DNA from: Pelagomonas calceolata
Taxonomy: Eukaryota
Direction of reading: 5' to 3'
Length of the DNA stretch: 64,000 nt
NCBI GenBank assembly: GCA_918797485.1
Contig: CAKKNE010000004.1
Span: 806,001-870,000 of the forward strand
The notes under the pieces were generated by a model. It did no database searches. It worked only from the letters and a program-made list of their open reading frames with translations, and was not told the DNA's origin. The translations under genes were made by a program, and so were the position numbers. Of the stretch, positions 1,154 to 63,868 are shown one piece after another (position 1 is the stretch's first letter; each line of letters starts with the position of its first letter).

Positions 1154-1172
1154 CTAGTGTCTTACCGCTAGC
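1154..1172 (+). promoter_or_regulatory. Bipartite CTAG motif between the divergent GT11 and TruD genes
   Basis: CTAGTGTCTTACCGCTAGC. Confidence 0.6.
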
Positions 1173-1311
1173 TTGCCATTATTTCGAGGGCTGGAGCTTG
1201 TTGAGCCTGCTGAAGATCTAACCTACACCGGTATAGGTTGATCAGTGGTCGTTAGGCACCGCACTCACACCAGCCCTACGAGGACGCGACTCGTTCGGAA
1301 CACTTCGCGCT

Positions 1312-3135
1312 GTGTCGGAGCCAGCTCGACTGCCTGTTGCAGCCTCCCGGCACGACGCGACGCGCCGTGGCCACGTGACGCCGTCGCGTGAAAGAACCCT
1401 GGACGCGCTCGCCGCGCTCGAAGCCGCAGCCCGGCCGCCGCCACCGATGACGTCCTGGTGGTGCGCCGGCGGCGAGCCTTATACCGCGTGCGGCCTCTTC
1501 GAAGGTCATGTGGACGCCAACGCGCCCGCGTCGCCGTCGAAAACGACTCACATCGAGCTCGAGTTCGTCGAGCTGCCGAAACGCGACGGCGAGGTCGAGG
1601 TCGAGATGCAGGACATGGGTCAGTCGTGGATGCAGCCTCCGTCGCAACTCCCCTATGCTACAAGTACCGAAGGTGTCGGCGGACGATTGAAAGCGAAACC
1701 CGAGCACTTCCGCGTCACCGAATTGTTGAGAAGTGCACCAGACGGCAAAAAAGATAGGGGCGACGCCTGCCACTACGTCCTCAGAATACGCAGACAAAAC
1801 CGCACGACCGAGTGGGTCCGTAGGAGGTTGCAGGAGGCCTTTGGTTTATCATCCTACAGGGACGTCGGCGTCTGCGGTCAAAAGGACAAGCGTGCAGTAA
1901 TCGTCCAGCACTTCTCCGTGCCGTCCTTCTCGCCGAAATTCGAACGGAACGTGCCGCTCGGCGAGTGCAAGATGCTGGCGCCGTGTCGCGGTGATTTAGA
2001 AGTGTTGGAAGTGATGGTGTCGTCCACCAAGTTGCGACGTGGTTCTCATCGGTCGAACGCGTTCCAGGTCGTGCTGTCGGGTGTGGATCGCGACGCGCTG
2101 GAGGCTTGCGAGCTCACTTTGAAGAGACTGCAGTTCACTGGCGTGCCGAACTACTTCGGGCCGCAGCGCTTTGTATGGATGCGGCGTCCTTCCTTCGACG
2201 GGGCGATGGCATCGTCGTGAGACCACGTCGGCTCGCCGGCGTCGACGCGATGCCGCGTCGCCGCGACGCTATCGACGCGGCCGCACGAGAGTCTCTCCGC
2301 GCTGCCGCGACGCTGTCGACGCTGCGACACAAGAGTCTCCACACAGGGCAAGGGCTGCGCGACAGCTTTACGAGGCTACAAGGACCTGAAAAAGCTCGAG
2401 GCTACGTCCGGGGCTGAACGAAGGAAGCTGCGGAACTCGTTACGGCACGAGCCTATGAAAAAGTTCGCGTGCGAGGCCTTCGCGTCGTCCGTCTTCAACT
2501 GCTACGTCGCCGAGCGCTTGCGGCAGGAGACCTTCGATGCTAGGTTAGAAGGTGATTTAACCTCAAGGAAGGGGTTGGGTGGTGGGTCTGCCACGGCGCG
2601 GGAGACCCTTACTGGACCTCTCATTGGTCGAGATCTACTGAAGCCTGCCGAGGGCACGAAGAGTGCTCTGTTCGAGAGTCAAGTACTGGAGAAGATTGAC
2701 CTGAACGAGGAGACTGTGGCTTCTGTCCTCGAAGGGAAGAGGAGGATCGCACGCCTGCCGGTGCCTGACGTCCAGGTGTCACAACATGACGAGGGCGTGT
2801 TGTTTGAATTCTCGCTACCGGTCGGTTGCTATGCCACGTCCGTTTTGAGAGAGTTCGCCAAGTGCGACCTATCATCAACCTGCGACTCCGGTGATGATAG
2901 TGATGGAGACCGCACGGTCGAGGCGGAGCCTGTGATAGAACGAAATGGCAAAAAGGGCGTTAGGTTTGCGGCGTCGCGGGCGGAAGCGGGCCGCGGCCGG
3001 CGCTTAGAAAGGTGGCTCGTCGACAAGGAGGGCAAGCGGGGCGACCCGCCGCGGCTCAAGGCGAAGAAGAAGGTGAACGGCGAGGTGCGGAAGCGTCGGG
3101 CGAAGAAGACGGTGGACTACGACGAGGTGACCTAA
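1312..3135 (+). CDS. TruD/PUS7-family pseudouridine synthase, 2 exons (1312-2172, 2347-3135); start uncertain (first ATG 1447)
   Basis: Motifs LKAKPEHFRVTE, catalytic GQKDKRA and FEFSLPVGCYATSVLRE. Removing GT-AG intron 2173-2346 restores NYFGPQRF|G in frame with ORF 2455..3135. Confidence 0.9.
2173..2346 (+). mobile_element. Introner-like intron in TruD (174 bp)
   Basis: GTATGG...CTCCACACAG. The 3' end resembles the introner TIR end (TTCCACACAG). Internal cgtcgacgcgatg-type palindromes; CGGCGTCC at +10. Confidence 0.75.
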
Positions 3136-3174
3136 CTTTTGGTTTTGTAGCAAGTACACAAAAGAACATTTATC

Positions 3175-4431
3175 CTACCACTCCGAGAACGACGCGCGCG
3201 CGAGCACCGCGTCGTCGTAGAACTCGCCGACCTCAGGGAACTGGGCAGGCTCCCAAAACCCCTTGGGCAAGACGCCGTCGTCCTCCCACGGCTCGAGGGC
3301 CGTCCACCCATGACGGCCCCCCATCGACCAAGACACTGACTTTTCATCGATCTTGATGTGCACTTGGACGCCCGCCGGCACATGGCGCTGAATAAGCGCC
3401 ACGTACTGCGATCGTGTCAAGTTCGGTATCTTTGTACTCTGCAAAACCAAGACGAGCGCCTTGAGCGAGCGAGGCGCATGGGCGAACACCGAGTAATTAC
3501 TTTCGTCGGCCCACGTGTCGTACTCGGAGTCCAGCTGTAATATCAATATTTCGAGAACGGGACAGATCGCATGAACTCGAGTAAAAGCAGTTTGAAGCTG
3601 GTACAATGGCAAAAAGGACTCCCAGAGCTCTAGAAGGGTCATGTGAGGAAATAAGCCGGCCGGGGTTGATGCATGAACGATATCTGCCAACCCTAGCGTT
3701 CTAAGCTCAACAAGTTGCGCGGCTTGCTCGCGGTCCATGAGCGTCCTAGTTTGAACCATGTCCGCTGGTACACCTTCGGGCGCGAGGAGAGCATACGAGG
3801 AGTATTGCCCGGATTGGTCTGGCCGCAGGAAGAGGTCCGCGCCGATCCCGGCTAACTCGAGGCGACGGAGATTCGGGAACTTCTTGTAGAGTGCGCGGGG
3901 CTGCTGACCGTACAGAAAAGACTCCTCGGTCCCTTGCCACCCGTTCCATTCAAGGAAGGGCGCGACGAGACATCCGGCACCAAACAAGGGGCTGAGCGCG
4001 GCTGCCTCGTCATCGTAGTGTTGCAAACATTTGGTGGCGAACAATATATCAATGGTGACCTTCTGCAGACGGGAGAAGCGCTGTCCTGCCAGGCCGCGCC
4101 CGAGCGAGTACGGTGGTTTGTCCCGGGACGCACATTCTGTAAATTCCACGTGGCGCGTGTGCCGCTCGACCGCCAGCCGCAGCTGCTGCGGGGCGCGCTC
4201 CCACGCAGAGACAAGGCAATGATCGTCGTCACCGAGTGGCAAGTTTATCGCGAGCGTCAGCGTCCGCCAGTGCACGGGCGCAGCGTGAGCTTTCAACCAG
4301 GCCTTGTTCAGGCACCAGCGCCGCGCGGCGATGTCGTTGAGCGTGCACAGGTACTCGAGGACGTGCGCGAGGACATCGTCTGGCAAGGAGGCCTGCTGGT
4401 GCTCGGCTGCCATCGGCGCAGGACTCGCCAT
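3175..4431 (-). CDS. F-box-like protein with LRR-like C-terminal region
   Basis: N-terminal SLPDDVLAHVLEYL...CLNKAW F-box pattern; LRRLEL and LEILIL repeats. Confidence 0.65.
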   Translation of the reverse strand: MASPAPMAAEHQQASLPDDVLAHVLEYLCTLNDIAARRWCLNKAWLKAHAAPVHWRTLTLAINLPLGDDDHCLVSAWERAPQQLRLAVERHTRHVEFTECASRDKPPYSLGRGLAGQRFSRLQKVTIDILFATKCLQHYDDEAAALSPLFGAGCLVAPFLEWNGWQGTEESFLYGQQPRALYKKFPNLRRLELAGIGADLFLRPDQSGQYSSYALLAPEGVPADMVQTRTLMDREQAAQLVELRTLGLADIVHASTPAGLFPHMTLLELWESFLPLYQLQTAFTRVHAICPVLEILILQLDSEYDTWADESNYSVFAHAPRSLKALVLVLQSTKIPNLTRSQYVALIQRHVPAGVQVHIKIDEKSVSWSMGGRHGWTALEPWEDDGVLPKGFWEPAQFPEVGEFYDDAVLARASFSEW

Positions 4432-4870
4432 AGCTGGCTTGGCGTGCTGAGGCTGTTGGCAGGACTGAAAGCAATCGCAAACAAGCGTGAGGAGTCAGCG
4501 CCGCGCCAGCAACCACGCGAGCCAAAAAGTCGTGCTAGAGTAGAGAGACACACTAGTTTTGCTTGCGGCCACAACTCAGTGCGGCCGCTGCGGGCACATC
4601 TAGACGTGCGCGAGCCTGCACATTCTCGCTCGGAGCGCTCTGACAGCGCACAGAGCCCGTTCACGCACGCGCGGCGCGAAAAGACCGCGGAGAGCGCCGG
4701 AGGAAGCGGAGAGCTGTACCTTCAGGCGCTGCGAGTATCACGCGTACGCACGTCAAGACGTCCTCAAAAAGCCACGCCACGGCGCGCTGAGACCTCCAGA
4801 AGCCACGCGCTGACCGAGGAGCAATTTCAAGAAGAAGGCGCGCCGCACTCGACGGCGAGGATCACCGGAG

Positions 4871-7800
4871 ATGGCCTTCCTCGCGTCCTTCTTGCGGACG
4901 CTGACGCTCGCCTTCGCGGCGTTACATTTTTTGGACCCGGCACCGCTGGGCCGGGGCCCGCGCGCGCCGCGCGTCGACCCGCGCCAGTGCGCCACGCGCT
5001 CCAAGGAGCGCGCGGCGCGCGCGGCGCTCTGGCAGCGCGCGAAGGCGAACACCTGGGCGCGCCTCACGAGCTTTTATGAAGGCATCAAGGCGGAGCTCGC
5101 GCGGCGGTCCCGATGCTGGGCCGCGGCGCCGGATTTGATTCCGGCCGCGCGGTGCTTCTGGCGCGCGGAGCTGCCGCTCCCTCCGTCCGACGAGGAGAGG
5201 CGGTCCGTGCGGGAGTTGCTGCGGTTCGCCAATATTACGGGGAAGCTGGCCCGCGAGACGAAGCGCGACGTCTTCCGGAAGATGCGAGACGAGGACCTAG
5301 CCCGGAGGGGGGCGCGCGCGTCGCAGCTCTCGCCCGACTACGAGGCGGCGACGACGGAAGTATGGCGCCATATCAGAGCGACGCCCCGCGGCGCGCCCAA
5401 CACTACGGACGTGCGGGCCTGGGCGGACAAAGTCGGCGAGTGGGGTCCTGAATGGCTCGCGACCTTCGCTCAGCGCTCCAACGCAACCCTCTTGGAGGAC
5501 AAGCAAGCCATCGCCGCCGCGGAGCTCGCGTTCCACCTCTTCGACCCGGGCCTGCAGCTCAAGGTGACGACGAACCTCACAAAATTGTCCGAAGCGCTCG
5601 CGCGGCCCTTCAATGGGGACTACGCGCCCGTCCGGTTAGGTGTGATACCTCTGCGGGGTCGTAGACAGCGATTGTTCGCGGGCTGGGCGCTCCTGCGCAT
5701 GATGGATCGCGGCGGCGACGCGCGGGACGCGGCCTACGAGGCGTTGAAGAGTCACGCCGGGTCCGTCGCCGAGAGCGTTTTGGACCCGCTGACGCAGTTA
5801 GTGGCTCTCCACATGATCACGCACCTGTCGCAGGACGACGAGGCGGCGAAGTGGATGGCCATCCTGTTTCCCTCTAAACAACTGTGCGCGGCGCTCGAGG
5901 GTTACCTTTTCGACGGCCACGGCGAATGCCGTCGTGAGGAATGGTCTCGCAGTGACGAAGAGAAGGTCTGGCTGCTGGAAGCCGGGTATAGGGCCGTCTG
6001 GGGCCTCGCTTCTAACAGTGGAGCTATGGCGGAGCACTGCGGCCGCGGCCTCGTCGCGGCCATCACGCAGCCGGGGCGGGACTTTTTTCGAGAACGGGAG
6101 CGCGCCGTGGCATTAACTGGCGACGCGTCGGCGCTGACGGCCTACGACTACGAGGCCGCCACTATCAGAAATGCGGCCTTCGCGCTGCGCATACTAGCTA
6201 GAAATGACAAAGCGCGGCGCCACGTCGCGCTTCAGTTAAGCTTACCGGAAGCGGCGACGATCGGCGATATTGATGAGGCCATCATGGTGGCCTCCGGGGC
6301 CGACGCGGCCTCGGGCCTGGAGAGCGCCTTTGCGTTTGTCGGACGGACGGTGCCGCCGTTCTTGCGGCGGGACGCGCAACGGGCGGTGGCGCGGACGCGC
6401 GTGGCCTGGCACCACCCGGCGCACGCTGCGCCGGCCGTCTACGGGTCCTTGACGGTTGAGTTGCTCGCGGCGGGCTTACTGCGGGCGTCTTGGTTGCGTC
6501 CGTTCCTCGGGAACGAGGCGACGGCGTCCTTAGTGAAGCGGGCGAACGAGCAGGCGCTGTTCTCGGCCGAGGCGCCGAAGCCGGCTTCGAAGCCGGCCGT
6601 GGCGTTGATCCGATGCGGCAAGGATAAGGTCGCCGAGACGTGCGAGGCGTGCCTCTCGCACCAAGGCATGTGCGCCGGCGACTGCACACTTGGGGGCTAC
6701 TTGTCCTTTTCACAAACGAATATGGACTTATGGACCGAGGTACACCCCGAATGGTCCTACGAGGACTATGACCGCGCGGTCCAGGCGCGCTGGGACGCCC
6801 TAGACGAGGACGGCAAACGGATCTTCGGCCGAGATGGCGTCTGCGAGCCGCAGCCCGTGCTGGTCGACTGCGGCGGCGCCCAAGGCCTGGTCGCGGAGTC
6901 GTGCGAGGCGTGCGGGGCGCGCCACGGTATGTGTACAGGTGCCTGTCACTGGGTTCTGCCGGAAACTCCAAAACCCCCGAATTGGCTCCAACGGAAAGCC
7001 GCGGAACTCGGTGCGTATAACCGGAAAAATGCGCCGGGGGTTTACCGCGCATTCGAGTCCGTGGGCCTCGGCGGGTCGGACCGGCTGTACGGACAGCCCG
7101 ACGCGAAGCAAGAGTGCCCCGCCGGGGAAGGCGCCGACGGCGAGTGCCTGTCGACACGCGTCTGCGCGCCGATCCCCTTCCCGCAAAAACCGGAAGAAGA
7201 CACCTGGGCCAAGGCCAAGCAGGGCTTGTCACTCTTCGGCAAGGCCGCAGGCCAGTTCATCAGAGAGACGTGGCCCGCTCTACTTATCTTAGCTATCATA
7301 GCCTTCATACTAATCTCCCAAAGAACAGTAATACAACATGTGCTCCACAAGATGTCAGAAACGTTCTTTGAGCTCTACATCATCGCCTTGACCGATGCTT
7401 GTGTGAGGCACGCGCTGCTCATGGGCGTCGCTATCATTGCCTGGATGCGAGTGGGCGCGCCGTGGCTCCCGTTCATCTTCGCGCCGGTATTTTATGGTAC
7501 TCTGTTGCCTCTATGGTTTTTACTAGCTTGTTGGTTGCTCGTATGCGTGGTAGTACCGGTCTGGGCGGCGCATACGATGCATAGATTTGGAAGAGCTTGT
7601 TATGATGCGTTCAAGCGGCGACGAGCGTCACGAAGAGCGGCGCGCGACGGCCGCAACGCTTTGCATGAAGGTCGCGATGGAGTCGAGGCCGTGCTGGCCG
7701 GCGCGCTGGATGCACAAGGGCCACCACCAGGAGCGATCCATTTAAGAATACGATGCAACGGGGAGGTTGTGTACTTTAAGGTAGGGCTCCAGGTGTCGAT

Positions 7801-10031: not shown

Positions 10032-10332
10032 CGGGCAGGCTTTACGCCGTTGACGGCAGCTTGGAGGCCTCGCAGCAATGCACGACCGGCGCACTAGTCG
10101 AACAAAGCCCTTGGGGCAGCCCTGCGACGCGCACGCGAGCTCGCGCTCGATCCTCCCGCGATCCTAGAGTGTCTCACGGGCCACTAGGATTTCCTACACA
10201 TCAGAGCACTGCACGAGCTTTTCAGACTAAGTGTTGTTAAAAAGATTATTACTCTTCGGACACACTAGAATGAATGTGAATTGAACGTTCGAAAAAGGCT
10301 CGGTCGTAGTAGTAACATGAATTCTCGCGGCA

Positions 10333-10968: not shown

Positions 10969-11039
10969 CGGGCAGGCTCGCAGCAACGCACAAAGCCTGT
11001 GGGGCAGCCTGCGGCCGAGCCTGAAATCTTGCACAATTC

Positions 11040-11062
11040 CTAGTGTCTTATAGGCCGCTAGC
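11040..11062 (+). promoter_or_regulatory. Bipartite CTAG motif upstream of ATG 10968
   Basis: CTAGTGTCTTATAGGCCGCTAGC. Confidence 0.6.
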
Positions 11063-11164
11063 AAGACGCCGTCGACGCGACGATGCACATTCGATAAGTC
11101 TTGAAAGATTATAACTACAGGAAGTGGATAGAAGACGTGGACTTTCGAAAAAGGAAGTGGCGAG

Positions 11165-13046: not shown

Positions 13047-13252
13047 TGCTGCTGCTGTTTTTTTGCGACGGCGGCGCGTGCTGAGTTGCGCTGTCTCGCA
13101 GCCCCTAGGTACAGGCAGTGCTGCCAGGCGGCGCACGCGTGCCTCTAGCACTTGGTGCCCTTGAAATCTGAGTTCAGTAATGAGGCGAAAACACGGCAAC
13201 CACGTCTAATCTAGCAGCGATTGCGCTTGCGCTTTGCGCTCGAGCCTGTTTG

Positions 13253-13274
13253 CTAGTGTCTTACAGCAGCTAGC
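13253..13274 (+). promoter_or_regulatory. Bipartite CTAG motif upstream of the CDK gene
   Basis: CTAGTGTCTTACAGCAGCTAGC. Confidence 0.6.
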
Positions 13275-13853
13275 TGCGGCAATTATTGATAAGTCGCGGC
13301 TAGCGAACGGAGGGACCTCGCGCAAGAACCGGAGCAGTTAATCCTTCTTGATACCCCTTTCGAGTTGCCTGAACGCCTCACGCTACGCCGGCGTCGCCCG
13401 TAACTTTACAGAGGCAGACAAGCTTTCGGAGAGCCAAATGCAACACGCAGCGGCGCGCGGCTCCGACGATCACCGCACGCGCGCGCAGGCTCTCATGACG
13501 TTCCCCGTCGCAACGGCCGCGATGGCCCCGCCCCACAACTAAAACTTAGTGCAGTCGGTCGCGTCTGATCGTCTCGAACTACTTCTGTCGCGATGTCGAC
13601 GACGCTGATGTCGGACTGATCGACGACCTGTCGGGCCAACGGTCGACTCGACCATCAACCGACGGTCGTGACCGACGCCCGGGAAAGCGTTCGAGTCGTC
13701 TGCGAGCCGACGACGGGCCGCCGATAGAAACGACGTCCGTCGGAGTCGCTGTGCGGTCGCGGGAATTTTACGAGAGCTACCGATGCGGACGCCGCGACGC
13801 CTTCGGTCGAGGCTTCGTCGCTAGAGTGCGACCCTTGACTTCTCCACAGGTAC

Positions 13854-21481: not shown

Positions 21482-21710
21482 CGCAGCGATGGCTTCCGGC
21501 GCGCTGCGCTGGCAATTTAAATCGGTTTCCCGGCTGCGTATCGCTGGCGCTTAGTGCGCAATGATGCCGCAAATACACTCGCCGCGTACGGCCATGCGGC
21601 TTTTGGGAACCTACTAGCCTCGCAGCCATTCGACGCTTCTTCGTCGTGGAACTGTCGTACGCACGGCTCCGAGACGCCTCGCCGGCCGAAGCTCGAGTTT
21701 CGTCTGCTTG

Positions 21711-21734
21711 CTAGTGTCTTTACAGACCGCTAGC
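21711..21734 (+). promoter_or_regulatory. Bipartite CTAG motif between the divergent CHD and ZnF genes
   Basis: CTAGTGTCTTTACAGACCGCTAGC. Confidence 0.6.
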
Positions 21735-21834
21735 TCGAGTTTCGCGCGGCCGTATCGGATGCATAACTCGTGGCTCAGGCAGTAATCAGTGGTGCAACTG
21801 CTCAAACCAACGCCTCACGTCGCACAGAGCAGCC

Positions 21835-47319: not shown

Positions 47320-47411
47320 CCTTTCAGTCGCGCTGCTTGCGGCTCAAAAACAACTGCTAGCCTAGCTCCAAATGGCGGAAAAAAAAGCCAGGCGGCCGGC
47401 GCCTCGCGCGA

Positions 47412-47432
47412 GCTAGCGTAGTGCGACACTAG
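47412..47432 (-). promoter_or_regulatory. Bipartite CTAG motif upstream of PA28
   Basis: Minus strand CTAGTGTCGCACTACGCTAGC. Confidence 0.55.
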
Positions 47433-48255
47433 CAAGCGCAGTCCAGCCCTCCTAGCTAAAGGAGGGTCCTGCCGCCCCCGGGGAATGGTAGTCGTCGCAA
47501 ATTAAAATCGAAATTCGCACGGGCTTGCAGCTCGGTGCTAAAGGCTGTGCTTCCGTGCGCAGCAGAGGCAGCCCCAACAACTAAATGGCTCCTTCAGTGA
47601 GTCGTTCGGTGGTCTGGCAAGCCTTTTAGCACCTTCCCGCTACTCGCCGCGGTCTGTGGAGCGGCATGTGGCCCAAAACACTATGGATTATGCTAGCGGC
47701 AACCAACACACTAGGCAAACCATTTGTGAGTTTGGTCCGAAGGCCCCTCCTGCGCCAGCGCAGCACCGTGCGCCAGCGACGCGCACACGCCGGCGTGGTA
47801 CACCAAAGCACCAGCTGCCTTGAAATTTACAGCGTCGGGCTGCACTTGCGCAGCACCAGGGGCCTTTTTACCTCCGCTGCGCCAGCACGTCATCAGAGAC
47901 GCTTACCGGTCAGAAGAAGGACACGTCCGGCGACGACACACCGGAGAGGCCCACCGCGAGGCCCGCGGCGCTGGCCCCCTGCCCCCAGAGAGCTTCTGGG
48001 AGGACGCGCCCCTCGATAACAGGAGGCTCGACATAACGCCACGCCCGCGCGCAGGTCGGGTCGTACCTTCGAGGACAGCATCGTGGTCGTCGCGAACAGT
48101 GCGTAAATCAAAAAGAGGAGGCGCCTTCGACGTTTTAGCTTTAGTGGTGATCGAGAGCCGCGCGGGTGCGGCAGCGGCAAAGGCGCTGCTCGGCGAAGCG
48201 TCGCTCCTGGGCGTACACGCGGCGCTCGCTCGGCGCCGCGAGCCGGTGCGTCGAG

Positions 48256-51984: not shown

Positions 51985-52214
51985 CAGAGACGGAGCTGCG
52001 TCGGGTCATGGCGCGGCGTGGCGTCGGCCCGCCCGACGACCTCGAGGAGCTTCGACGAATTAGTAGCTTAACTAAGCTCGTTTATTTGTATTATGACTAC
52101 TAGGGATGCGCGCCGCGGATAGCGTGCTTAAAGACACTAGCAAACGCCGCTCTTGGTTTTGGCAAGCTTAGGGGAGCTTTTTGCAAGCTCACTCTAGCTC
52201 TGCCGCCGCGTTTG

Positions 52215-52236
52215 CTAGTGTCTTGCTACCGCTAGC
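52215..52236 (+). promoter_or_regulatory. Bipartite CTAG motif upstream of PCIF1 (further copies at 52118-52140 minus and 52428-52448)
   Basis: CTAGTGTCTTGCTACCGCTAGC. Confidence 0.55.
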
Positions 52237-52637
52237 TGCCACGGACAAGTCTGGCTTGCTACGCTTTATTGCGAGTCGAGGTGCGCCTGAGACGACTCCG
52301 GGCGTCTTATTGCATCGCCAGAGACGGCAAGAACCACCGCTCGTTGCAAGCGCGCCGTAAAACTTGCATAACTTTGGGCTGAGTCGGTTTCACCTTTTTT
52401 GCGTATGCTGAAAGACATCGGAGGATTCTAGTATGTCTATAGGCTAGCGTGAAAATAGCCTGCCTGCAGGCCAGCAGCGGCAAGTGAGGCAAGCTGCTGC
52501 AGATGTTAGCTGTCCAATCCTGAAGGCACGCATGGCAAGATAGTGACGGACAGCCGCGAAGAGAGTGCACGGCTTTTTTAGCGCGGAAAGCAACACACCA
52601 GTGAAGCTGCACGCTGCTGCTCAACGAGAGCTGAGAA

Positions 52638-54647: not shown

Positions 54648-54701
54648 GCTCCTTGTGCTTCCGTTGCGGTGCTGCTTCGCGGCGCGCCTGCTGTCGATTT
54701 A

Positions 54702-55839: not shown

Positions 55840-55840
55840 C

Positions 55841-55896
55841 TTAGCTGCGCTGTTGGGGGTGGCAAGCGTGTTAGCTGTGCTGTTGGGGTGGCAAGC
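55841..55896. repeat. About 30-bp tandem duplication just upstream of the flavodoxin ATG
   Basis: ttagctg(c/t)gctgttggggg/gtggcaagc twice, at 55841 and 55871. Confidence 0.75.
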
Positions 55897-56221
55897 TTGT
55901 GTGAGCTGTGTGGGCTCGCTCGTTGCAAACGCTTCGATCTCTGGTTTTTAGTGCAAGCGGTGCTGCTTTGGAAGAGCTGCAGTTGCAATTTCGCGCGTCG
56001 ACGGCGTCGCGAGGCGGTGCTTAGGCGACTGCTACGTGCCACCTCGATGTGGATGCGAGCACGAGCTCGCCCCCTCGAACGCCGCCGCAACAGCCGTGGA
56101 CAGACATATAGAGACCTGCTACCAGCGCTCCGGGGCATTCAGGGAACTCGCAGTTGCGCGCGCGGAGACGGCCGCCCACAAGAGGCCGTCGATGCGCCAT
56201 CGAACGAACCTAAACCTAAAG

Positions 56222-57718
56222 TTAAGACACCCCCGAATCCGGCGGCCGCAGCGCCAGGCACGGCTCCGCCGAGAACAGGTGTAAAGACAGGACGCAACCT
56301 CCCATGGGCACCACGAGTAAACAACTGGCAATATTGACCGCGGTCCAGTAGCCGCTCTCGCCGGCCCAGACGATCGGCGCCGTGAGTAACGCCGCGAAGC
56401 CACCCAGCGTATACAAGAGACCGGCCGTCCGCCCTATGCTTTTCTGCCCAAAAAGTCCAGCACAAAAGTTCGGCACGGAGGCGTAGAACGCCGCCCGATA
56501 CGCGGCGTAAATGATCGCGCCGAAGATCTGAGCTGTAACTGTGGGAATACAAACGCAGATGCTGAACGCGAGGCCTATCAGATTAATCACATGAGCCGAG
56601 GCACATAAGCCAATGCGAAACAAGTACGCCAAGATGGGAATCCACAGACAACCGGCCACGACCAACCCCGAGATCAGCTCGGGCACGCCGTTCGTGCCGT
56701 CGCCGATCGCGTCGAGCCAATCATATATAGTACCTAAGTACCCTATCGCTTTGAACATCCCGAGCGTGACCCACGTCGCCAGGAGCGCGAACTCGAGCGT
56801 GTAGAGCTGGCCCCGGCCGAAGGGCCTATCCTTTAAGCGTAATGCCGTCGCATTCTTCCGATCATCTATTTCATGATCGACGGCGTCGCATCCACTCAGC
56901 CGCCAGCAGTACGCTAAAGCTATCGTGAGTGCTAGCGAGAGGACCGCTAGCAGCAGGAAGGCGACGCGGAAGTGGCCATAATTATTATCGAAGAGGTTTA
57001 GGATGCCTTGCACCGCTAAAAAAACGCCGCTCGACGAGTCGTACAAGCAAGACGCCGCCGTCAAAAAAACGACTCGACTTTCCGTCAGGCCCGCGGCCCG
57101 GAACGAGGCCAGGAAGAAGCCCATGCCGCCGACGCCCAACAGCATGAACGCGACAAACAGACACCAGTCGCCGAACCAGTCGAAGAGCCCTATGAGCACG
57201 TAGCCCGCGACGTAGCACGCTCCGGACAGTAGGACCGTGACTTCCGAGCCTTGCAAGTCGACCAAGACGCCGATGAGGAAGGCGCTGCCCTCGTTGACGA
57301 AGGACGCTAGCGAGTACACCGCGGATAACGTCTCGATCTGCGCCGCGCAGGCCGAATCCGACGATTCTACGATGACTTCTTCCGCGTCGCACTCGTAGAG
57401 AAAAGCCCCCCTTTCGACCAACATGGCCTGCATCGGCGTCCAGCCATATATAGGGCCCGCGAACATGAGGCATGACAGTAAAGCGAGGTACGGCGTCACC
57501 TTCTTCGCGACGGGGTGCGTCGTATCTCGACTCAGTAAAGGCGTCGCCTCCACCGCAAAACCTCTTCCAGAACCGTCCATTTCTTCGGTGGCCTGGCAGC
57601 AGGCCTCGCCCAGGAGGTTCACGCCCAAGGCGTCGTTTCTGGGTGACGGGCCCTGCGTCGTGTTGTCGATAATCTCTAAATCGGCATCTCGTCGTCGCGG
57701 GGACTCGGGGTCCGACAT
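56222..57718 (-). CDS. MFS transporter, SLC43/LAT3/FMP42-like
   Basis: ATG 57718; about 12 hydrophobic helices; AGPIYGW..M..ML...G.F and LYDSSSGVF motifs. Confidence 0.8.
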   Translation of the reverse strand: MSDPESPRRRDADLEIIDNTTQGPSPRNDALGVNLLGEACCQATEEMDGSGRGFAVEATPLLSRDTTHPVAKKVTPYLALLSCLMFAGPIYGWTPMQAMLVERGAFLYECDAEEVIVESSDSACAAQIETLSAVYSLASFVNEGSAFLIGVLVDLQGSEVTVLLSGACYVAGYVLIGLFDWFGDWCLFVAFMLLGVGGMGFFLASFRAAGLTESRVVFLTAASCLYDSSSGVFLAVQGILNLFDNNYGHFRVAFLLLAVLSLALTIALAYCWRLSGCDAVDHEIDDRKNATALRLKDRPFGRGQLYTLEFALLATWVTLGMFKAIGYLGTIYDWLDAIGDGTNGVPELISGLVVAGCLWIPILAYLFRIGLCASAHVINLIGLAFSICVCIPTVTAQIFGAIIYAAYRAAFYASVPNFCAGLFGQKSIGRTAGLLYTLGGFAALLTAPIVWAGESGYWTAVNIASCLLVVPMGGCVLSLHLFSAEPCLALRPPDSGVS

Positions 57719-58081
57719 GCGGCGGCGTGGGCAGCCTCTGATGAAGGCAGGGCTGCGCAGCCGTCTCGCGCGCGATCCGTTGGCGGCGTCGTGCGCTTGC
57801 CGCTCTTTCTCGTCGACAGCTGCGTCGAGACAAGCGCCAGCTTGTGTGGGCGTCGAGCCAGGCGCGCGAGAGGAAAGGGGGAAATGGGCAGATACGTTGC
57901 GCCGCGCGGGCGACGCGCGGCCGGTCCCGGAGCGCTCCCGGCCGCGGCGACGGCGTTCGCGGCGCGCTGACGGGTCGTGTGGCCCGTTCGGGGCGCGCGA
58001 CGCGCGGCGGCCGGGACGCTGCACGCCGCATGAACCCATGCACTACTCGGAACATACCGCCCACAACCTAAAACGAAACAA

Positions 58082-59287
58082 TTAATAGAGCCCCCCGACG
58101 TCCGCAACCTCGTCCACCTCCGCCGCCCCACGCTTGCCCGCGACCGCTCGTTCAACCAACCGGTTCTCCTCGGCCAAATCCCTGGAAACAATATCGCAGT
58201 ACCGCTGCAGCGGCAGGATCTTCGGCCGGTCGTCGTGGATGCCGAAGGGCTCCTCGATGATGTGCCCGATCTCCTCGGTCGCGAGGAGCATCCACGAGAG
58301 TAATGCTGTTGCTGGTGGTACCAATAACAAAGGCATGGACTGGACGAGGATGATCGGGCTTCCCAGCGTCCAGATCGATAGCAAGCGAGACGTATGTCTG
58401 GAGTAGGAGAGGGGCACGGGCGTCCCGGCGATGGCTTCCGCGTCGCCGATGGCGTCTTGCAGTTCCAACAGTAAGCTCTCGAGCTGCCACCAGAGGAGAT
58501 GAGAGGCGGACTGCGTGTCTTCCGACGCTCTTCGCACCGCATCCACCCTAGATGATAGAGCGTACGTGCACGCTAATGGTAAATTGTCCGCGGATTCCAG
58601 TTCTCTCCTCTCATCATTCCCGAGGCAGTGGAACTCGTCGAGGCGGCGCTCTCCTCTCAAATGCTGTTTGAGGGCCAAAGGGAAGGCCTCGAGCCATCGC
58701 AGCAGCGCCGCGGTCTCCTCTGCTTCATGTTCGGGCGCCGCCGTCGTGACGTACGCTCGGCACGTCCGCGCCGTCGCTCTTACCCTATTCACGACCTTCG
58801 CCCAGACCTGGCGGCCCTCCCAGAACCGGTCATAAGATTGCGACGTCCGGAACGCGAGCAGGATGCCCAGGATGCCTCCGCTCAGCTCGAAGGGCGCCCC
58901 CAAGTTCAAGTGTTCCGCTTCCAGGAGTGTCGTGTCAAACGCGAGGTGCTCCGCTCGTATCGCGTAGGCCAGACCCGACACGAGAATCGCAAAAAACGTG
59001 TTCGCCACGAGGTGCCCCTGCACCCGCTGGAGCACGCTCGACGACGGCAGGTTCCGCAAGTTCAGCCACCAGTCCGCGATGGAGTAGCGCGTCGGCGCAT
59101 CCAAGGTGTAGCCGTCCTCGTCGGCGTACGCGGCCAGCCGGTCGAGGTAGGTCTCCTGCGTCCTGGCCGGGGCATCGGTCGGGAACTCGTCCGAGGACGG
59201 CGCGGCCTCGCGTCTCGTCGCGCGCCGCGGCGGCGCGACGAGGGCGTGTGCTGCCACGAGTAAAGGTGTCAGCGCGAGCGCGCGCAT
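58082..59287 (-). CDS. Bestrophin-like (UPF0187/VCCN-type) anion channel, probably plastid-targeted
   Basis: LLAFRTSQSYDRFWEGRQVW, TPVPLSYSRHTSRLL, EEIGHIIEEPF; bipartite signal ...AAHA|LVAP. Confidence 0.9.
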   Translation of the reverse strand: MRALALTPLLVAAHALVAPPRRATRREAAPSSDEFPTDAPARTQETYLDRLAAYADEDGYTLDAPTRYSIADWWLNLRNLPSSSVLQRVQGHLVANTFFAILVSGLAYAIRAEHLAFDTTLLEAEHLNLGAPFELSGGILGILLAFRTSQSYDRFWEGRQVWAKVVNRVRATARTCRAYVTTAAPEHEAEETAALLRWLEAFPLALKQHLRGERRLDEFHCLGNDERRELESADNLPLACTYALSSRVDAVRRASEDTQSASHLLWWQLESLLLELQDAIGDAEAIAGTPVPLSYSRHTSRLLSIWTLGSPIILVQSMPLLLVPPATALLSWMLLATEEIGHIIEEPFGIHDDRPKILPLQRYCDIVSRDLAEENRLVERAVAGKRGAAEVDEVADVGGLY

Positions 59288-59499
59288 CGTTGGCGTTACC
59301 GCGACGACGGGTGCGCGTCACGCTGCACCAAGCCACTGAGGAGGCTGCAGCTGCTGTCCCACTGAGATGCGGCGCTTGGTGTCCGCACAAACTTCTGAGG
59401 AGCGGCGCACGGGCCCACGCTATTAGTGCCTGACTGGTGCCGCGTCGTGTTGCGAGTCAGTTGCTGTTATGACGGCAAAAAACAGAGCACAGCATATTC

Positions 59500-59522
59500 C
59501 TAGTATGTCAGTGTACGCTAGC
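59500..59522 (+). promoter_or_regulatory. Bipartite CTAG motif between the divergent bestrophin and DENN genes
   Basis: CTAGTATGTCAGTGTACGCTAGC. Confidence 0.5.
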
Positions 59523-59733
59523 GCGCGTTTTTTACGCAATTTGCTTGGCAGTGCGAGACAAAACACGAATAGCACTGCAACAGATCGTGAACACAACGCG
59601 CTGAGCCGCCCGAGGCCACCTGTCACCGAATAACTCGAACGCGTAACCCCATGCGTCATTGCTTTGGCAGAGCACACGAAAGCAAGCAGAGCACTGCAGA
59701 GGAAAGCAAGCGACGCACAAAAAGCAAACAGGA

Positions 59734-62700
59734 ATGGAAACCTTCGCAATATGCGGCATCGACCACACGACGACCACCGATGACGACGAAGAGCACGCGC
59801 AAGTTATTGTGGACGTAGCTGTGATAGCCGCCGACGCGGCGGTCGACGCCCCGTGGGAGCGCTGCGTTGGAGAGACGAACATCGGCTTAGGGCTGCGGCG
59901 CGTCGGCATCGCGGTGCGCAAAGCGGCTAGGACGGACGCGCCCGCGTACGTCGTCGACGCACGTATATCTGCGACGCGGCCCGGCAATGACCGCGGCTGG
60001 ACGGCCTGCGCCCAGCTAAATGGAGCGAACCCGTCTTTATCATCGGGAGGATTGACCGGGTCGCTGCGCGCGCCTTTGTTGCTCTGGCGCCGCGTCGCCG
60101 CGCCCAGCGACCGCGCCGCACCTTTGGTAGCGTTACGTCTGACGACCGGCACTCCACAAAAGCCCTGGGCGCCTTTATCAATACCTACCACTACAAATTT
60201 CCCGCGGACCACTGCCCTATTCGACAGACGGGGCCAGGCCCGTTTGTATGGAGTCCGCGCGCCACCGATGAAAGCTCCTCCACAAATACTAGCGAGTTGG
60301 GGCCGGCCGCCGCCCAGATTGGCCGACCTCGTTTTTGATGATGACGCCTCTGTGAAGAGGAAGCCGCGCGATTCATTGACTTTCGAGGAGTTTTCCTTCA
60401 GCCTCACGGACGCAACGGGTGCGATAACCTTCGTGAGCTGCGTGCGCTTCGACGCGCCCCTCTCCAATCAACAGGGCGCGGAGATACGCTGCGAGCCCGT
60501 GGCGTTCTGCCTCTTGTATCGTAGATCAGACGCGCGCGCGGCGATGCGCACGGCGTGCGTCGAGCTCTACCGCCTCTACTTGTCGAAGCACCCTAGAGCG
60601 TTCCGCGTCCTGCTCGCGACACTGGCACATTTGCCTTTGCCTTCACCTGATGAGCGCGTCGACCTGCGTATTAGTTTTGTCGATGAAGATGGATCAATGG
60701 CGCCGTTGCGGGAGATTTCTGTAAGGTCGTCTCGGTTATTACGGGCGGGCCTGCGGTCCGTGGATGATGCGCAGGCGTGGCGCGCGTTTCTTTCTTCGTT
60801 AGCACCCGACAACTTGGTGAGAGTTGTGGAACTCGCGTTACTGGAAAGACCGCTACTCGTGTGTGCGTCGTCGACCCCGAGCTGGTTCCTCGATTGTTTG
60901 AGAGCGGTCTTGTACCCGCTGCACTGGGCCCTGCCTTGCGTGGATCGCGTGCCGCGCGACATCGGCCACGACCTCGTGAGCGGCGTCGTGCCCCTGCTCG
61001 CCGCGTGCCGCCTGGGGCCGGGGGCGGCGCCGGCGCGGAATCGGTGCTTTAGTGAACCCGTAGATCACTCGGTCGTCGTCGTGGACCTCGACTCAAAAGA
61101 AATCGATTTTGGCCTCAAGCTCCACGCGTCGGCGCCGCGTATCTCCCAAATGCACCGGCGGCGCTGCTGCGGCGCGCTGCGCGTGATTGGCGACATTGAC
61201 GGCGAGGGCGTGGCGATCCGCGACGTCTTCGCGCAACTGGTCGCTTCCGTCCTCGAGGGCCACCGGGCGTGCCTCAACCTCCAGAAGCGGGACACGCGGC
61301 GCCTGAGTGTGAGTGATATCATCGACGCGAAACGCTTCTCGCGAGGGGACCCGTTCCGCTGCGAACTGGGCGAGACCCAGGCCTTCGCCGAATTTGTCAG
61401 AAGGGCGGTGGAGCCCGACGTGGACGACGGTGCCGTCGACGTCACCGTAGGTGGCCTCGCGGCGCAGCTGCGGGCCCGCGACGAGACGACCATAGAGTGT
61501 TCGGCGGCCGTGACGCTGCCCTGCGTCGCCTCGACGGAAGAGACGAACTGGGCTTCCCTAGTTGGAGACGCTTCAGAACGCGTCGACTTTGAGGATTTGA
61601 GGATGCGCATTCAGACGGCCTCGGCGTCGGACGCGGCGACGCCGGCCGAGCGCTACCGGCGCGACGCCCTCGCGGCGGCGGGGCGGTCTCAGTTAAATCT
61701 AGATGCAGACCCGGCCCGAGGCGCCGTCCGCGACGTGGCCGAGCTCCATTTTTTAACTTTGCCGCGGTTTGTCAGGCGACGCCGCACGGCCGCGCAGATG
61801 GCCTGGGGGCTGCTGCGGGCGCTGGGGCTGCTCCGGCACCTGCTCGCGAACAGGTTGGTCCCGAGCGAGGCCGCCTGGCGCGCCTTGTTGCTCGCCGCGG
61901 GCCAAATCAAGGCGACAGCCACCGACTTAACGGTGCGGGAGTTCGCCCGGGACGTCGCGCGGGCGCTCTTCCGCGAGATGCAAGCATGGGACATAAAAAT
62001 AGGGCCCCAGACCTTCGCGCTCTGGTCGTTAGCGGTAGCGGGAGACGAAGACGCAGGATACGCCACGGAGGACGATGAATTAGCGGCGCCGCGGTTGTTT
62101 GCCCGCTCCGCGACCTGGTCGGCCGAGGACGCTGGTAATGAATGTCCGTGGCTCTGGGACGCGGGCGCGCAATTTTGTCAGGAGCGAGGCGTGTCCACGG
62201 CGGACCTTGGGGTGCTCTGCGCCAAGGATGACGACGCCTGTTACGCGCCGGGCGACGCGTTCTTTGGGCGGGGCGGCTCACCGCCGACGCCGAAGTTACC
62301 AGAAGCGTCGGAGCGGCGCATTGTGCTCAAGCCGGGGGCCGTCGGTTGTGAAGCTTGCGGGGCAAGAGCGCCCGAGCCGGCCGTGCTGGCGGCGGTGCTC
62401 CACGGCTGCCTCGGGCAGTCGGCGTGTGCCAAATGTGGTGCATCTGGAGATGGAGTGAAACCGACGCTCGTCGTCCTCGACAGTGTGATCGGGCCCCAGG
62501 TCGTGGCCTACCTCGCGCCGCGGGCGATACGCCTGGACGTGGACGCGCGCATCCGGCGCCACGGCGAGGCGTCGCTCGCGGCGGCGCGCGTGGTTGCGGA
62601 CGCGCCGGACGTCTTTTATAGTGCCTTGTGGTGGTCCGCGCGGCTCCGCCTGCCGCCGCCGTTCCGGGGCCGCGGCGACCACGCGCTGCACCTGGCGCTC

Positions 62701-62808
62701 CAGTCGTCGTCCGGCGACGTTGGGAAGGACGACCGGCTGGCGGGGGCGCGCGATGCGTTCGGGACGCTGCCGCGGTCGGGGCTGGAGGTGTGGCTGCCGG
62801 CGTTTTAG
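59734..62808 (+). CDS. DENN-domain protein (DENND4-like Rab GEF)
   Basis: METFAICG, ANPSLSSG (MABP-like), FSFSLTDATG...SCVRF, LALLERPLLV, LYPLHWALP.V, VVVDLD, ETQAFAEFV. Confidence 0.8.
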   Translation: METFAICGIDHTTTTDDDEEHAQVIVDVAVIAADAAVDAPWERCVGETNIGLGLRRVGIAVRKAARTDAPAYVVDARISATRPGNDRGWTACAQLNGANPSLSSGGLTGSLRAPLLLWRRVAAPSDRAAPLVALRLTTGTPQKPWAPLSIPTTTNFPRTTALFDRRGQARLYGVRAPPMKAPPQILASWGRPPPRLADLVFDDDASVKRKPRDSLTFEEFSFSLTDATGAITFVSCVRFDAPLSNQQGAEIRCEPVAFCLLYRRSDARAAMRTACVELYRLYLSKHPRAFRVLLATLAHLPLPSPDERVDLRISFVDEDGSMAPLREISVRSSRLLRAGLRSVDDAQAWRAFLSSLAPDNLVRVVELALLERPLLVCASSTPSWFLDCLRAVLYPLHWALPCVDRVPRDIGHDLVSGVVPLLAACRLGPGAAPARNRCFSEPVDHSVVVVDLDSKEIDFGLKLHASAPRISQMHRRRCCGALRVIGDIDGEGVAIRDVFAQLVASVLEGHRACLNLQKRDTRRLSVSDIIDAKRFSRGDPFRCELGETQAFAEFVRRAVEPDVDDGAVDVTVGGLAAQLRARDETTIECSAAVTLPCVASTEETNWASLVGDASERVDFEDLRMRIQTASASDAATPAERYRRDALAAAGRSQLNLDADPARGAVRDVAELHFLTLPRFVRRRRTAAQMAWGLLRALGLLRHLLANRLVPSEAAWRALLLAAGQIKATATDLTVREFARDVARALFREMQAWDIKIGPQTFALWSLAVAGDEDAGYATEDDELAAPRLFARSATWSAEDAGNECPWLWDAGAQFCQERGVSTADLGVLCAKDDDACYAPGDAFFGRGGSPPTPKLPEASERRIVLKPGAVGCEACGARAPEPAVLAAVLHGCLGQSACAKCGASGDGVKPTLVVLDSVIGPQVVAYLAPRAIRLDVDARIRRHGEASLAAARVVADAPDVFYSALWWSARLRLPPPFRGRGDHALHLALQSSSGDVGKDDRLAGARDAFGTLPRSGLEVWLPAF

Positions 62809-62885
62809 TTGTTGTTGTGTAAGATTACTGTCTCTGATGGACGCCTAGCGCGGCGACGAGGCGGCGGCGTCTCGTGGGCGCCGAC

Positions 62886-63704
62886 TTAAGGATCCTGGTC
62901 CCCGGCGTCGGCGCCCTCGCCCGAGAGCGCCGCCTGCATAAGCTCGGCGAAGGCCTCGGGGTCGCGCGCCTTCAGCTCCGACAGCTCCTCAATGGCAGCG
63001 TTGGCTTCCTGCGGGTCCATGCCCAGGTGGCCCGCGATGGCCGACGCGGCGGCGAACGGCGTCGCCGCGGCCGCGAGCTGCGGCTCGGGCGGTGCAAGTT
63101 CGCCTGGTACTGCTTGCCCGAGCAGTTCGCGCAGCGCGAAGCGGGCTCGCGCCTGTCGTAGACCGCCCTCAATATTACGGGTGGACGGGTGCGCTCCGCC
63201 GAACACGCGCCGCGCGGTCCGTGCCGTCTCCTCGAGTATCGTCAAGGCCTCGCGGAGATCGTCGAGCGTGGCGGCGGGGTCTGCGCAGAAGGCCATTGCG
63301 TAGTTTGTCCTCATCCCGAGCGTCATCTCATGACTCTCGCCGAGAACACGTCGCGCCACGGGCAGCGTTTTGCGATACAATGCCTTGGCTTCTTCGGAGC
63401 GCTGAAGTTGAATAAGGGACCCCATGTAGTTGATTGCTGCTCGGAGGGTGCTAAAATCTTCCTCGCCGTTCGTGTCGTCGGCGCACGCCTCGACCGCGAC
63501 CGCGACGGCCTCCTTGTATTTTTTGTCGGCGTGATATTGCTCCGCGTTGCCGCCGCGGTGTATTTTCTTACACATTTGCTTGTGGCCGCGGCGCCAGTGG
63601 TCATGTTGGCAAGTTTTGTTGCAGTATCTGGTATGGCATCTAACGCATCGCGGCGCGTCGTGGGCCAGTGGGGCGGCGCAGGCGGCGCAGGTTGTGAGGA
63701 TCAT
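62886..63704 (-). CDS. MYND zinc-finger protein with TPR-like helices
   Basis: CAAC...CVRC...YCNKTCQHDHW..GHKQMC; ARRVLGESHEMTL and ARRVFGGAHPST repeats. Confidence 0.85.
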   Translation of the reverse strand: MILTTCAACAAPLAHDAPRCVRCHTRYCNKTCQHDHWRRGHKQMCKKIHRGGNAEQYHADKKYKEAVAVAVEACADDTNGEEDFSTLRAAINYMGSLIQLQRSEEAKALYRKTLPVARRVLGESHEMTLGMRTNYAMAFCADPAATLDDLREALTILEETARTARRVFGGAHPSTRNIEGGLRQARARFALRELLGQAVPGELAPPEPQLAAAATPFAAASAIAGHLGMDPQEANAAIEELSELKARDPEAFAELMQAALSGEGADAGDQDP

Positions 63705-63868
63705 TTTTGCGTCGGCGGGGCGTCGAGAGGGTCGCGGGCGTCGATGTGAATGCGGTGAGGCTGGCTAGTATCCTTAGAGGCTAGCTCAAGAAAAGTTAAT
63801 CAACAGCGCAGCCAGCCAGTCCTACGAGTCGACGTAGCCGAGGTAGGCGTACGAATGCCCGCGATATA

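What the first reader, a model, noticed from the sequence alone, without database searches (positions are those of the whole stretch)
1154..63785. Recurrent bipartite CTAG-TGTC-N-GCTAG element marking gene starts
Seen: about 13 copies of consensus TTGCTAGTGTCTTACAGGCCGCTAGC at 1154(+), 4534-4556(-), 10164(+), 11040(+), 13253(+), 21711(+), 47412(-), 52118-52140(-), 52215(+), 52428(+), 54702(-), 59500(+) and 63765(+). All are intergenic under my gene models. Most lie about 55-250 bp from a start codon, in either orientation, often in the middle of divergent gene pairs. The two CTAG half-sites are 14-20 bp apart. I did not see it in coding DNA or before the giant genes. Inference: a lineage-specific bidirectional promoter or nucleosome-positioning element, or a domesticated transposon end. 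I know of no description of it.
Basis: partly seen in the sequence, partly recalled or inferred. Interest (0 to 1): 0.75.

Follow-up and report, generated by a model that had tools for sequence, protein, structure and literature searches.

The report
Two-way promoter signal in marine alga
A roughly 28-letter, two-part DNA signal sits just in front of gene starts at many unrelated places in this marine microalga, usually as one copy shared by two back-to-back genes, and is likely the landing site of a still unidentified protein that would open promoters in both directions.

Summary
The element is real. Marine metagenome contigs of the same pelagophyte-type alga raised the set to 163 copies with unrelated flanks: consensus GCTTGCTAGTGTCTTACAGGCCGCTAGCT, CTAG-to-CTAG distance 14-20 (mode 18). 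Among intergenic gaps not picked by the search, 16 of 22 divergent, 9 of 50 tandem and 0 of 45 convergent gaps hold it. It faces genes either way, about 200 bp before the start codon. Stranded RNA reads switch strand at it, three 5'-end piles lie 12-36 nt outside it, ATG is depleted on the outward strand from its edge, and A/T tracts flank it. It shows no target-site duplication, no flanking homology and no compensatory pairing, so it is neither a transposon end nor a conserved hairpin. Best reading (0.7): the site of an abundant, orientation-independent promoter factor, like yeast general regulatory factors or human ZNF143. The protein is unidentified and function untested. My searches found no description. 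Probably several thousand copies genome-wide (extrapolated).

The parts
1149..1173 (+). Copy 1; divergent gap between an unnamed minus-strand gene and TruD
   Evidence: TruD; RNA strand switch in bin 935-1401
4533..4561 (-). Copy 2 (degenerate, 17 bits); divergent gap before a minus-strand gene and a 1466-aa RING ORF
   Evidence: RNA strand switch in bin 4204-4670
10159..10189 (+). Copy 3 (degenerate, 13.5 bits); upstream of a minus-strand gene; 5'-end pile at 10128
   Evidence: pile 6 of 12 molecules in X22
11035..11063 (+). Copy 4; upstream of the tandem paralogue of the gene served by copy 3
   Evidence: family D14
13248..13275 (+). Copy 5; upstream of a protein kinase gene (minus); 5'-end pile at 13222
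   Evidence: pile 5 of 15 in X24
21706..21735 (+). Copy 6; divergent gap between a chromo/SNF2 helicase gene and a RanBP2-zinc-finger gene; flanked by the only long direct repeat (13 bp) among 159 copies
47411..47437 (-). Copy 7; upstream of a PA28 proteasome-activator gene (minus)
47691..47719 (-).
52117..52145 (-). Copy 9 (second half CTAT); head-to-head with copy 10 in the tandem gap before a PCIF1 gene
52210..52237 (+). Copy 10
52423..52449 (+). Copy 11 (degenerate, 19 bits); about 190 bp before the PCIF1 start codon
54701..54729 (-). Copy 12 (best match, 44.6 bits); upstream of a Sedlin/TRAPPC2 gene; 5'-end piles at 54673-54691 in all four runs
59495..59523 (+). Copy 13; divergent gap between bestrophin and DENN genes
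   Evidence: RNA strand switch between bins 59006-59422 and 59423-59839
63760..63786 (+). Copy 14; about 60 bp upstream of a MYND-TPR gene (minus)

Best explanation
The element is a dispersed, two-part DNA motif that sits about 200 bp before start codons in either orientation, and it is likely the binding site of an abundant sequence-specific promoter factor that would keep the DNA open and let transcription start within about 40 bp outside either end. Shown: the sequence, its elastic spacer, its sharp boundaries, its position at gene 5' sides, one copy per divergent gap, RNA leaving it in both directions. Inferred: that a protein reads it as double-stranded DNA (two DNA-binding modules on a flexible linker, or two factors, one per CTAG half), that with the flanking short A/T tracts it forms a nucleosome-depleted core of about 85 bp, and that it recruits or licenses RNA polymerase II on whichever side a gene lies. 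The factor is unidentified.
For: Position: of intergenic gaps not picked by the pattern scan, 16 of 22 divergent, 9 of 50 tandem and 0 of 45 convergent gaps hold a copy; for gaps of 150 bp or more 16 of 21 against 0 of 13 (Fisher p 1e-5). Without the window's 6 divergent gaps it is 10 of 16. Sharing: 30 of 32 motif-bearing divergent gaps hold a single copy. Orientation: in 28 tandem-gap copies the first half faces the gene 16 times, the second 12 times; MYND-TPR paralogues carry it both ways round. Anchoring: in tandem gaps the distance to the downstream coding start is tight (median 201, log SD 0.38) and to the upstream coding end loose (median 197, log SD 0.82; Levene p 0.003). RNA: strand switches at copies 1, 2, 13 and 5'-end piles 36, 31 and 12-30 nt from the nearest CTAG at copies 3, 5, 12. 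Leader signature: on the outward strand 14-134 bp from the centre ATG 64 against CAT 163 in 109 arms that lead to a gene start (the most skewed of 32 trinucleotide pairs), 36 against 33 in 25 arms that face a gene end; both halves show it. TTTT+AAAA counts per 10-bp bin outward are 79, 79, 52, then 12 (273 arms). Footprint: kept in a diverged divergent promoter of a syntenic pair with 84% coding identity (L129/L146) and in two further pairs. Fixed asymmetry: T faces G at the fifth stem position in 154 of 159 copies, as expected for sequence read-out.
Against: No binding, chromatin or reporter data. The four RNA runs come from at most one sample, are poly(A) fragments rather than cap-selected, and 5'-end piles also fall inside genes (12508, 3686, 7993, 2425), so the 12-36 nt distance rests on three genes; 8 pile rows were not shown. 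A plus-strand pile begins inside copy 14 (63767, 5 of 11 in X22), and 25-44 reads per run from a MYND paralogue elsewhere run through a copy that abuts the start codon, so the motif can lie inside transcripts. ATG depletion already holds in the first 30 bp outside the motif, so starts are not fixed at 30 bp. 6 of 38 divergent gaps and, by my gene models, 5 of 22 window genes (2 more doubtful) have no copy, and two of those 5 are well transcribed (flavodoxin, MFS): it is not required for all promoters. Two gaps called convergent hold copies (L137, L147), though both contain short outward ORFs. Length-normalised over all gaps the convergent deficit is only p 0.017. Gene models in the metagenome loci come from my own Markov HMM, checked against RNA strand only in the window. 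The plus side of copy 5 is nearly silent.
Confidence: 0.7

Rival explanations
1. Promoter-boundary (insulator) site: a bound factor sits between back-to-back or tandem genes and blocks cross-activation or read-through, as Tbf1 does in yeast divergent promoters, rather than activating.
For: One central copy per divergent gap; the two sides of copy 5 are expressed very unequally; Tbf1 precedent (PMC4551913, passages).
Against: Absent from 45 of 45 unselected convergent gaps; anchored to the downstream start in tandem gaps and leaders begin at its edge. These fit a core or proximal promoter site better, but the two roles are not exclusive.
Confidence: 0.12
2. Replication-origin or general chromosome-organising site that lies in promoters only because they are the open non-coding space.
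For: Spacing of one per 4.6-6.8 kb; base skews flip at the motif; orientation independent.
Against: Skew flip and ATG depletion are explained by outward transcription; a 25-kb stretch has no copy; convergent gaps of 150-860 bp are empty.
Confidence: 0.07
3. End or footprint of a transposon (MITE, Helitron CTAG end, CACTA-type TAGTG/CACTA ends) that inserts near gene starts.
For: Near-inverted symmetry; the first half contains TAGTG and three copies read TAGTG-N10-CACTA-like (the CACTA and Helitron end rules are recalled); the motif flips orientation among paralogues; copy 6 has a 13-bp flanking direct repeat.
Against: No TSD excess at any boundary; longest flanking direct repeat mean 5.04 against 5.07 for shuffled pairs, and 1 of 159 at 9 bp or more against 0.7% expected. 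Base composition is background beyond -6 and +5. Self-BLAST of 122 loci and the window found no family extending from the motif apart from paralogous genes. No Rfam match in 20 sources.
Confidence: 0.05
4. Structural hairpin or cruciform (DNA), or RNA stem-loop in 5' leaders.
For: GCTAGTG and CGCTAGC can pair with one wobble; mean folding energy -9.0 kcal/mol as RNA on one strand, -3.2 as DNA; a variable loop would explain the elastic spacer.
Against: In 36 unselected copies no position pairs more often than shuffles (closing pair 14 Watson-Crick against 16.6 expected; inner pair 11 against 13.1); the commonest inner combination is a T-C mismatch (89 of 159); orientation relative to the gene is free although the wobble works on one strand only. 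One pair (5,-2) reaches p 0.003 in the full set, but that set mixes pattern-selected copies with insertion variants.
Confidence: 0.04

Closest known systems
Human Staf/ZNF143 binding site (SBS) at bidirectional promoters (PMC3082894; abstract seen)
   Same: A long sequence-specific site over-represented between head-to-head genes and needed for expression in both directions.
   Different: No sequence likeness tested or claimed; here about three quarters of sampled divergent gaps carry one copy, the site is bipartite with a spacer that varies by 6 bp, and no factor is known.
Yeast general regulatory factor sites (Tbf1, Cbf1, Abf1, Reb1, Mcm1) in divergent promoters (PMC4551913; passages seen)
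   Same: Abundant promoter-proximal sites in a compact genome, serving functionally unrelated genes; A/T tracts beside the site (the yeast poly(dA:dT) architecture is recalled).
   Different: Different sequence; longer; elastic spacer (Abf1's fixed spacer and Rap1's variable half-site spacing are recalled, not checked).
Drosophila Motif 1 / M1BP core-promoter element (10.1101/2020.10.27.357533; abstract and passages seen)
   Same: A lineage-restricted, long, TATA-independent element at thousands of promoters of mostly constitutive genes, promoting accessibility.
   Different: Motif 1 is a single block of different sequence; directionality here is free.
Toxoplasma GCTAGC element bound by AP2XI-5 (PMC13734140; passages seen)
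   Same: The hexamer GCTAGC is the core of the second half here and nearly of the first; it peaks about 84 bp upstream of gene starts in Toxoplasma.
   Different: There a 6-bp palindrome in 12.3% of promoters marking late-cycle genes; here part of a 28-bp bipartite site in an unrelated lineage. Likely convergence; an AP2-type reader is only a lead.

Membership tests
Bidirectional-promoter / general-regulatory-factor site | Enriched at gene 5' sides, depleted between convergent genes | tested here: met
   16 of 22 divergent, 0 of 45 convergent unselected gaps
Bidirectional-promoter / general-regulatory-factor site | Orientation independent; one site shared by two divergent genes | tested here: met
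   16:12 orientation split in tandem gaps; 30 of 32 divergent gaps with one copy
Bidirectional-promoter / general-regulatory-factor site | Transcription starts close to the site on both sides | tested here: inconclusive
   Strand switches and three 5' piles at 12-36 nt, outward ATG depletion; no cap-selected data, one pile inside a motif
Bidirectional-promoter / general-regulatory-factor site | Serves functionally unrelated genes | tested here: met
   93 downstream segments hit diverse Pfam families (proteasome, condensin, Ndc80, Ras, transporters, enzymes); 28 control segments were as mixed, so no pathway bias was visible
Bidirectional-promoter / general-regulatory-factor site | Nucleosome depletion over the site and phased flanking nucleosomes | tested here: inconclusive
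   A/T tracts within 30 bp and low CG to about 180 bp, but no consistent period in CG, SS or WW profiles (best periods 250, 200, 140)
Bidirectional-promoter / general-regulatory-factor site | Bound by an identified sequence-specific protein; mutation lowers transcription | not testable with these tools
   needs pull-down and reporters
MITE / DNA transposon end | Target-site duplication flanking the element | tested here: not met
   no excess at 56 boundary pairs x 7 lengths
MITE / DNA transposon end | Shared internal or subterminal sequence beyond the terminus | tested here: not met
   background composition beyond -6/+5; no extending BLAST family
MITE / DNA transposon end | Presence/absence polymorphism with empty sites | not testable with these tools
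   no second assembly of the same locus among the fetched contigs
Helitron 3' end (rule recalled: hairpin then CTRR, inserted before T) | Terminal CTAG followed by host T, with conserved hairpin upstream | tested here: not met
   base after the second CTAG is C in 21 of 31 unselected copies and T in 2; no separate upstream hairpin
Structured RNA / DNA hairpin | Compensatory base changes in the stem | tested here: not met
   36 unselected copies, no pair above shuffles; no Rfam match in 20 sources, 115,679 bases
Site-specific recombination site (rule recalled: fixed spacer between inverted arms) | Fixed spacer length | tested here: not met
   CTAG distance 14 (1), 16 (14), 17 (43), 18 (84), 19 (15), 20 (2) of 159
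Toxoplasma AP2XI-5 GCTAGC element | Recognition by an ApiAP2 domain | not tested
   no genome of this organism was available to look for AP2 proteins

The most novel reading that the evidence does not exclude
This alga has replaced TATA/initiator logic at a large share of its genes with one back-to-back core promoter: each CTAG half sits about 30 bp from a start site, the position of a TATA box, and seeds its own pre-initiation complex in the opposite direction, read by a lineage-specific factor (possibly a divergent TBP partner or a domesticated transposase). No TATA peak was seen outside the motif.
Probability: 0.15. Interest if true: 0.8.

Novelty: new variant of a known kind. Interest (0 to 1): 0.57.

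Why it matters
My searches found no promoter element described for any pelagophyte, a group of abundant open-ocean picoalgae. A 28-bp signal at probably several thousand promoters would give a bait to pull down the master promoter factor, a marker to place gene starts and 5' UTRs in genomes and metagenomes, a compact two-way promoter for genetic tools, and a case for how very gene-dense, GC-rich genomes mark promoters. The elastic spacer within so long and conserved a site is unusual and points to a particular protein architecture.

Tried and rejected
No whole genome was held, so genome-wide counts are extrapolated. The strict pattern gave 4 viral hits, all single and inside long ORFs, and 20 hits in 596 Gb of prokaryote genomes; 15 have odd spacers, 5 look like true copies and lie on contigs of MAG bins below 90% complete or above 5% contaminated, two of them with eukaryote-type genes, so I treat them as probable mis-binned algal DNA (not proven for L244, L248, L253). 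Two strict metagenome hits with CTAG distances 22 and 23 (L178, L231) were left out of all counts. Nucleosome phasing by CG periodicity: inconclusive; the paper on Dnmt5 linker methylation in these algae was not held, so that background is recalled. Functional bias of target genes: none visible in 93 against 28 segments; in the window the genes without it are the two giant surface proteins, flavodoxin, an MFS transporter and one unnamed gene, too few to call. Rfam: nothing in 20 of 123 sources. Earlier findings of the scan: nothing relevant.
Full report
1. Observation. The strict form occurs 8 times against 0.02 expected from 60 local Markov simulations. No whole genome was held. The window is eukaryotic and pelagophyte-like: GC 63%, a spliced GT-AG intron, and a bestrophin whose closest named relative is Aureococcus anophagefferens at 64% identity. 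GC content and repeated introns of about 200 bp fit the published description of Pelagomonas calceolata (passages); that assignment is my inference.

2. More copies. Self-BLAST showed that the loci are different places, sharing only paralogous genes, introns and short repeats. Two matches with CTAG distances of 22 and 23 were dropped. Relaxed and PWM scans added copies that the pattern had not selected, giving 163 in 359 kb: 127 selected and 36 unselected, 14 of these in the window. At the 16-bit threshold about 0.9 false hits are expected. In 15 loci of 5 kb or more there are 20 copies beyond the one that fetched each locus, in 136 kb, one per 6.8 kb; the window has one per 4.6 kb. For a genome of about 32 Mb (size recalled) that means roughly 4,700-7,000 copies for 16,667 genes (gene count).

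3. Anatomy. Consensus GCTTGCTAGTGTCTTACAGGCCGCTAGCT. In 31 unselected copies the first CTAG is invariant, followed by T (30), G (27), T (28); the second half is C (28), G (27), CTA (31), G (28), C (21) (finder anchored on these positions, so the figures are upper bounds). The CTAG distance is 16-19 in 156 of 159 copies, mode 18. Composition returns to background beyond -6 and +5. The halves rarely go alone on the left: CTAGTGT occurs 150 times in motifs, 8 times elsewhere in non-coding DNA, 4 times in coding DNA (dominated by selected copies); of 29 unselected CTAGTGT hits about 20 had a second half (read by eye).

4. Position. A self-trained coding HMM agreed with RNA strand for all its segments in the two stretches where reads were laid but missed two short minus-strand genes, which I added. 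No copy lies in a predicted coding segment. Among gaps between predicted segments that do not hold a pattern-selected copy, 16 of 22 divergent, 9 of 50 tandem (some are introns) and 0 of 45 convergent gaps hold one; for gaps of at least 150 bp, 16 of 21, 9 of 34 and 0 of 13 (Fisher p 1e-5). Over all gaps and corrected for length, 3 of 65 copies fall in convergent gaps that make up 13.7% of the bases (p 0.017); those 3 lie in two gaps that contain short outward ORFs. 30 of 32 motif-bearing divergent gaps hold one copy. Median distance to the predicted start codon is 195 bp on the first-half side (n 55) and 209 bp on the second-half side (n 61). In tandem gaps either half may face the gene (16:12) and the distance to the downstream gene is much less variable than to the upstream one.

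5. Transcription. Four stranded poly(A) runs (at most one sample, 6-12% of each read) were laid on 1-14000 and 51500-64000; copies 6-8 were not covered. RNA runs leftward on one side and rightward on the other at copies 1, 2 and 13; at copy 5 the right side is nearly silent. 5'-end piles of minus-strand transcripts lie at 10128, 13222 and 54673-54691, that is 36, 31 and 12-30 nt from the nearest CTAG. Two other upstream piles (56021-56029, 57846-57852) belong to genes with no motif. Against a fixed geometry: piles also occur inside genes, one plus-strand pile starts inside copy 14, and reads from a MYND paralogue elsewhere run through a motif that abuts the ATG. An independent sequence signal agrees with outward transcription: ATG is 2.5-fold rarer than CAT on the outward strand of arms that lead to a gene start (64:163) but not of arms that face a gene end (36:33), on both halves and from the edge onward (the first bin of the first-half side overlaps the motif's own extension). 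A4/T4 tracts are about five times denser within 30 bp of the edges than at 30-40 bp, and base skews appear only beyond 45 bp from the centre (also seen in arms facing gene ends, so not diagnostic).

6. Conservation. L129 and L146 are syntenic (6-phosphofructo-2-kinase gene and divergent partner, 84-90% coding identity) and keep the motif with a changed spacer in an otherwise patchy promoter. L142/L173 and L159/L241 show the same. Both members of each pair were fetched by the motif, so this shows positional retention, not frequency. MYND-TPR paralogues carry it in both orientations at a similar place. In prokaryote genomes and viruses the strict pattern is at chance level apart from probable mis-binned contigs. 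Other pelagophyte genera could not be searched.

7. Rivals tested. Transposon end: no TSD, no flank homology. Hairpin: no compensatory change, fixed T/G asymmetry, commonest inner pair a mismatch; no Rfam match. Recombination site: spacer not fixed. Nucleosome phasing from CG periodicity: one step at the coding start, no stable period. Pathway-specific regulon: downstream genes are mixed.

8. Mechanism. Shown: sequence, position, sharing, free orientation, outward RNA. Inferred: a general promoter factor with two DNA-contacting modules (or two cooperating factors) binds the two halves across about one and a half to two helical turns, and with the A/T tracts clears a short region from which polymerase II starts within about 40 bp on the side or sides where genes lie. 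Confidence 0.7; insulator 0.12, origin or organiser 0.07, transposon end 0.05, hairpin 0.04.

9. Comparison and novelty. It works like the ZNF143 site (abstract), yeast general-regulatory-factor sites (passages) and Drosophila Motif 1 (passages), but matches none in sequence as far as those passages show; it shares only the hexamer GCTAGC with the Toxoplasma AP2XI-5 element (passages). I found no description: searches for Pelagomonas+promoter+motif (4 listed of 6), Pelagomonas calceolata+genome+intergenic (27), the first-half octamer (29; 30 listed of 615, none algal by title), stramenopile core promoter terms (49; none), Aureococcus+nucleosome+promoter (50) and Pelagomonas+transcription factor+upstream (59) were seen as listings only; the genome preprint's main text has no occurrence of 'motif' or 'promoter' and the outlier-chromosome preprint none of 'motif'. 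Supplements of these preprints were closed, the journal version of the genome paper was not read, and subscription papers are not searched, so absence from print is not certain.

10. Verdict. A real, previously unnoticed (by my searches) promoter-proximal element of a known functional kind, unusual in its length, elastic spacer and prevalence. Interest 0.57; new variant of a known kind.

Noticed in passing
L129:772(-), L137:4145(-), L143:13(-), L145:5479(-) and 1459(-), L168:3551(+), L214:349(-), L227:342(+): A second non-coding element (core GGAGCCCTGGAAG, about 30 bp with its leader) lies 17-81 bp beyond the second half of the main motif, same orientation, in 8 copies; a ninth (L149) lies on the other side, reversed, so it always reads away from the motif. 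None near a motif in the window.
   Followed up: partly
window 54931-54963; L143:3187, L144:3513, L165:2193, L172:209, L199:233 and 182: A 60-85 bp short repeat ending CACCGTAACA sits 44-228 bp from the motif and reads away from it in all 7 copies; its reverse begins TGTTA like an LTR end (recalled rule). RNA reads with variants show other copies are transcribed.
   Followed up: partly
window 55292-55476 and 2173-2346; L134, L150, L151, L186: Spliced 174-185 bp introns; the one in the flavodoxin gene is a high-copy repeat (87-93% identical copies in other loci, heavy cross-mapping), consistent with introner elements reported for Pelagomonas.
   Followed up: partly
window 23700-46400: Tandem duplication (unit 10.4-12 kb) of a giant ephrin-receptor-like/laminin-G surface-protein gene; both copies are interrupted near 32330-32360 and 36970-37060, and a third partial 3' end lies at 46190-46420.
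   Followed up: no
window 48164-49154: Tandem array of a 142-bp, about 80% GC unit (about 6 copies) between copies 7/8 and the 949-aa ORF.
   Followed up: no
window 62886-63704; L125, L134, L139, L144, L157, L180, L202, L221, L222: A large dispersed MYND-TPR paralogue family; members carry the motif upstream in either orientation, one (L134:11623) has none, and antisense reads exceed sense reads over the window copy at 95% likeness.
   Followed up: partly
L137:3757-4496; L198:15: A gap with degenerate TTAGGG repeats, a palindrome and two motif copies; one copy and its flank recur identically in L198.
   Followed up: no
non-coding flanks in the window and loci: GGGCAGCC is over-represented near the motif (51 of 66 hits non-coding), possibly a leader element.
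   Followed up: no
L255:353-377 and L260:3001-3025: The same algal-type locus lies in two different prokaryote MAG bins, probably mis-binned eukaryote DNA.
   Followed up: partly
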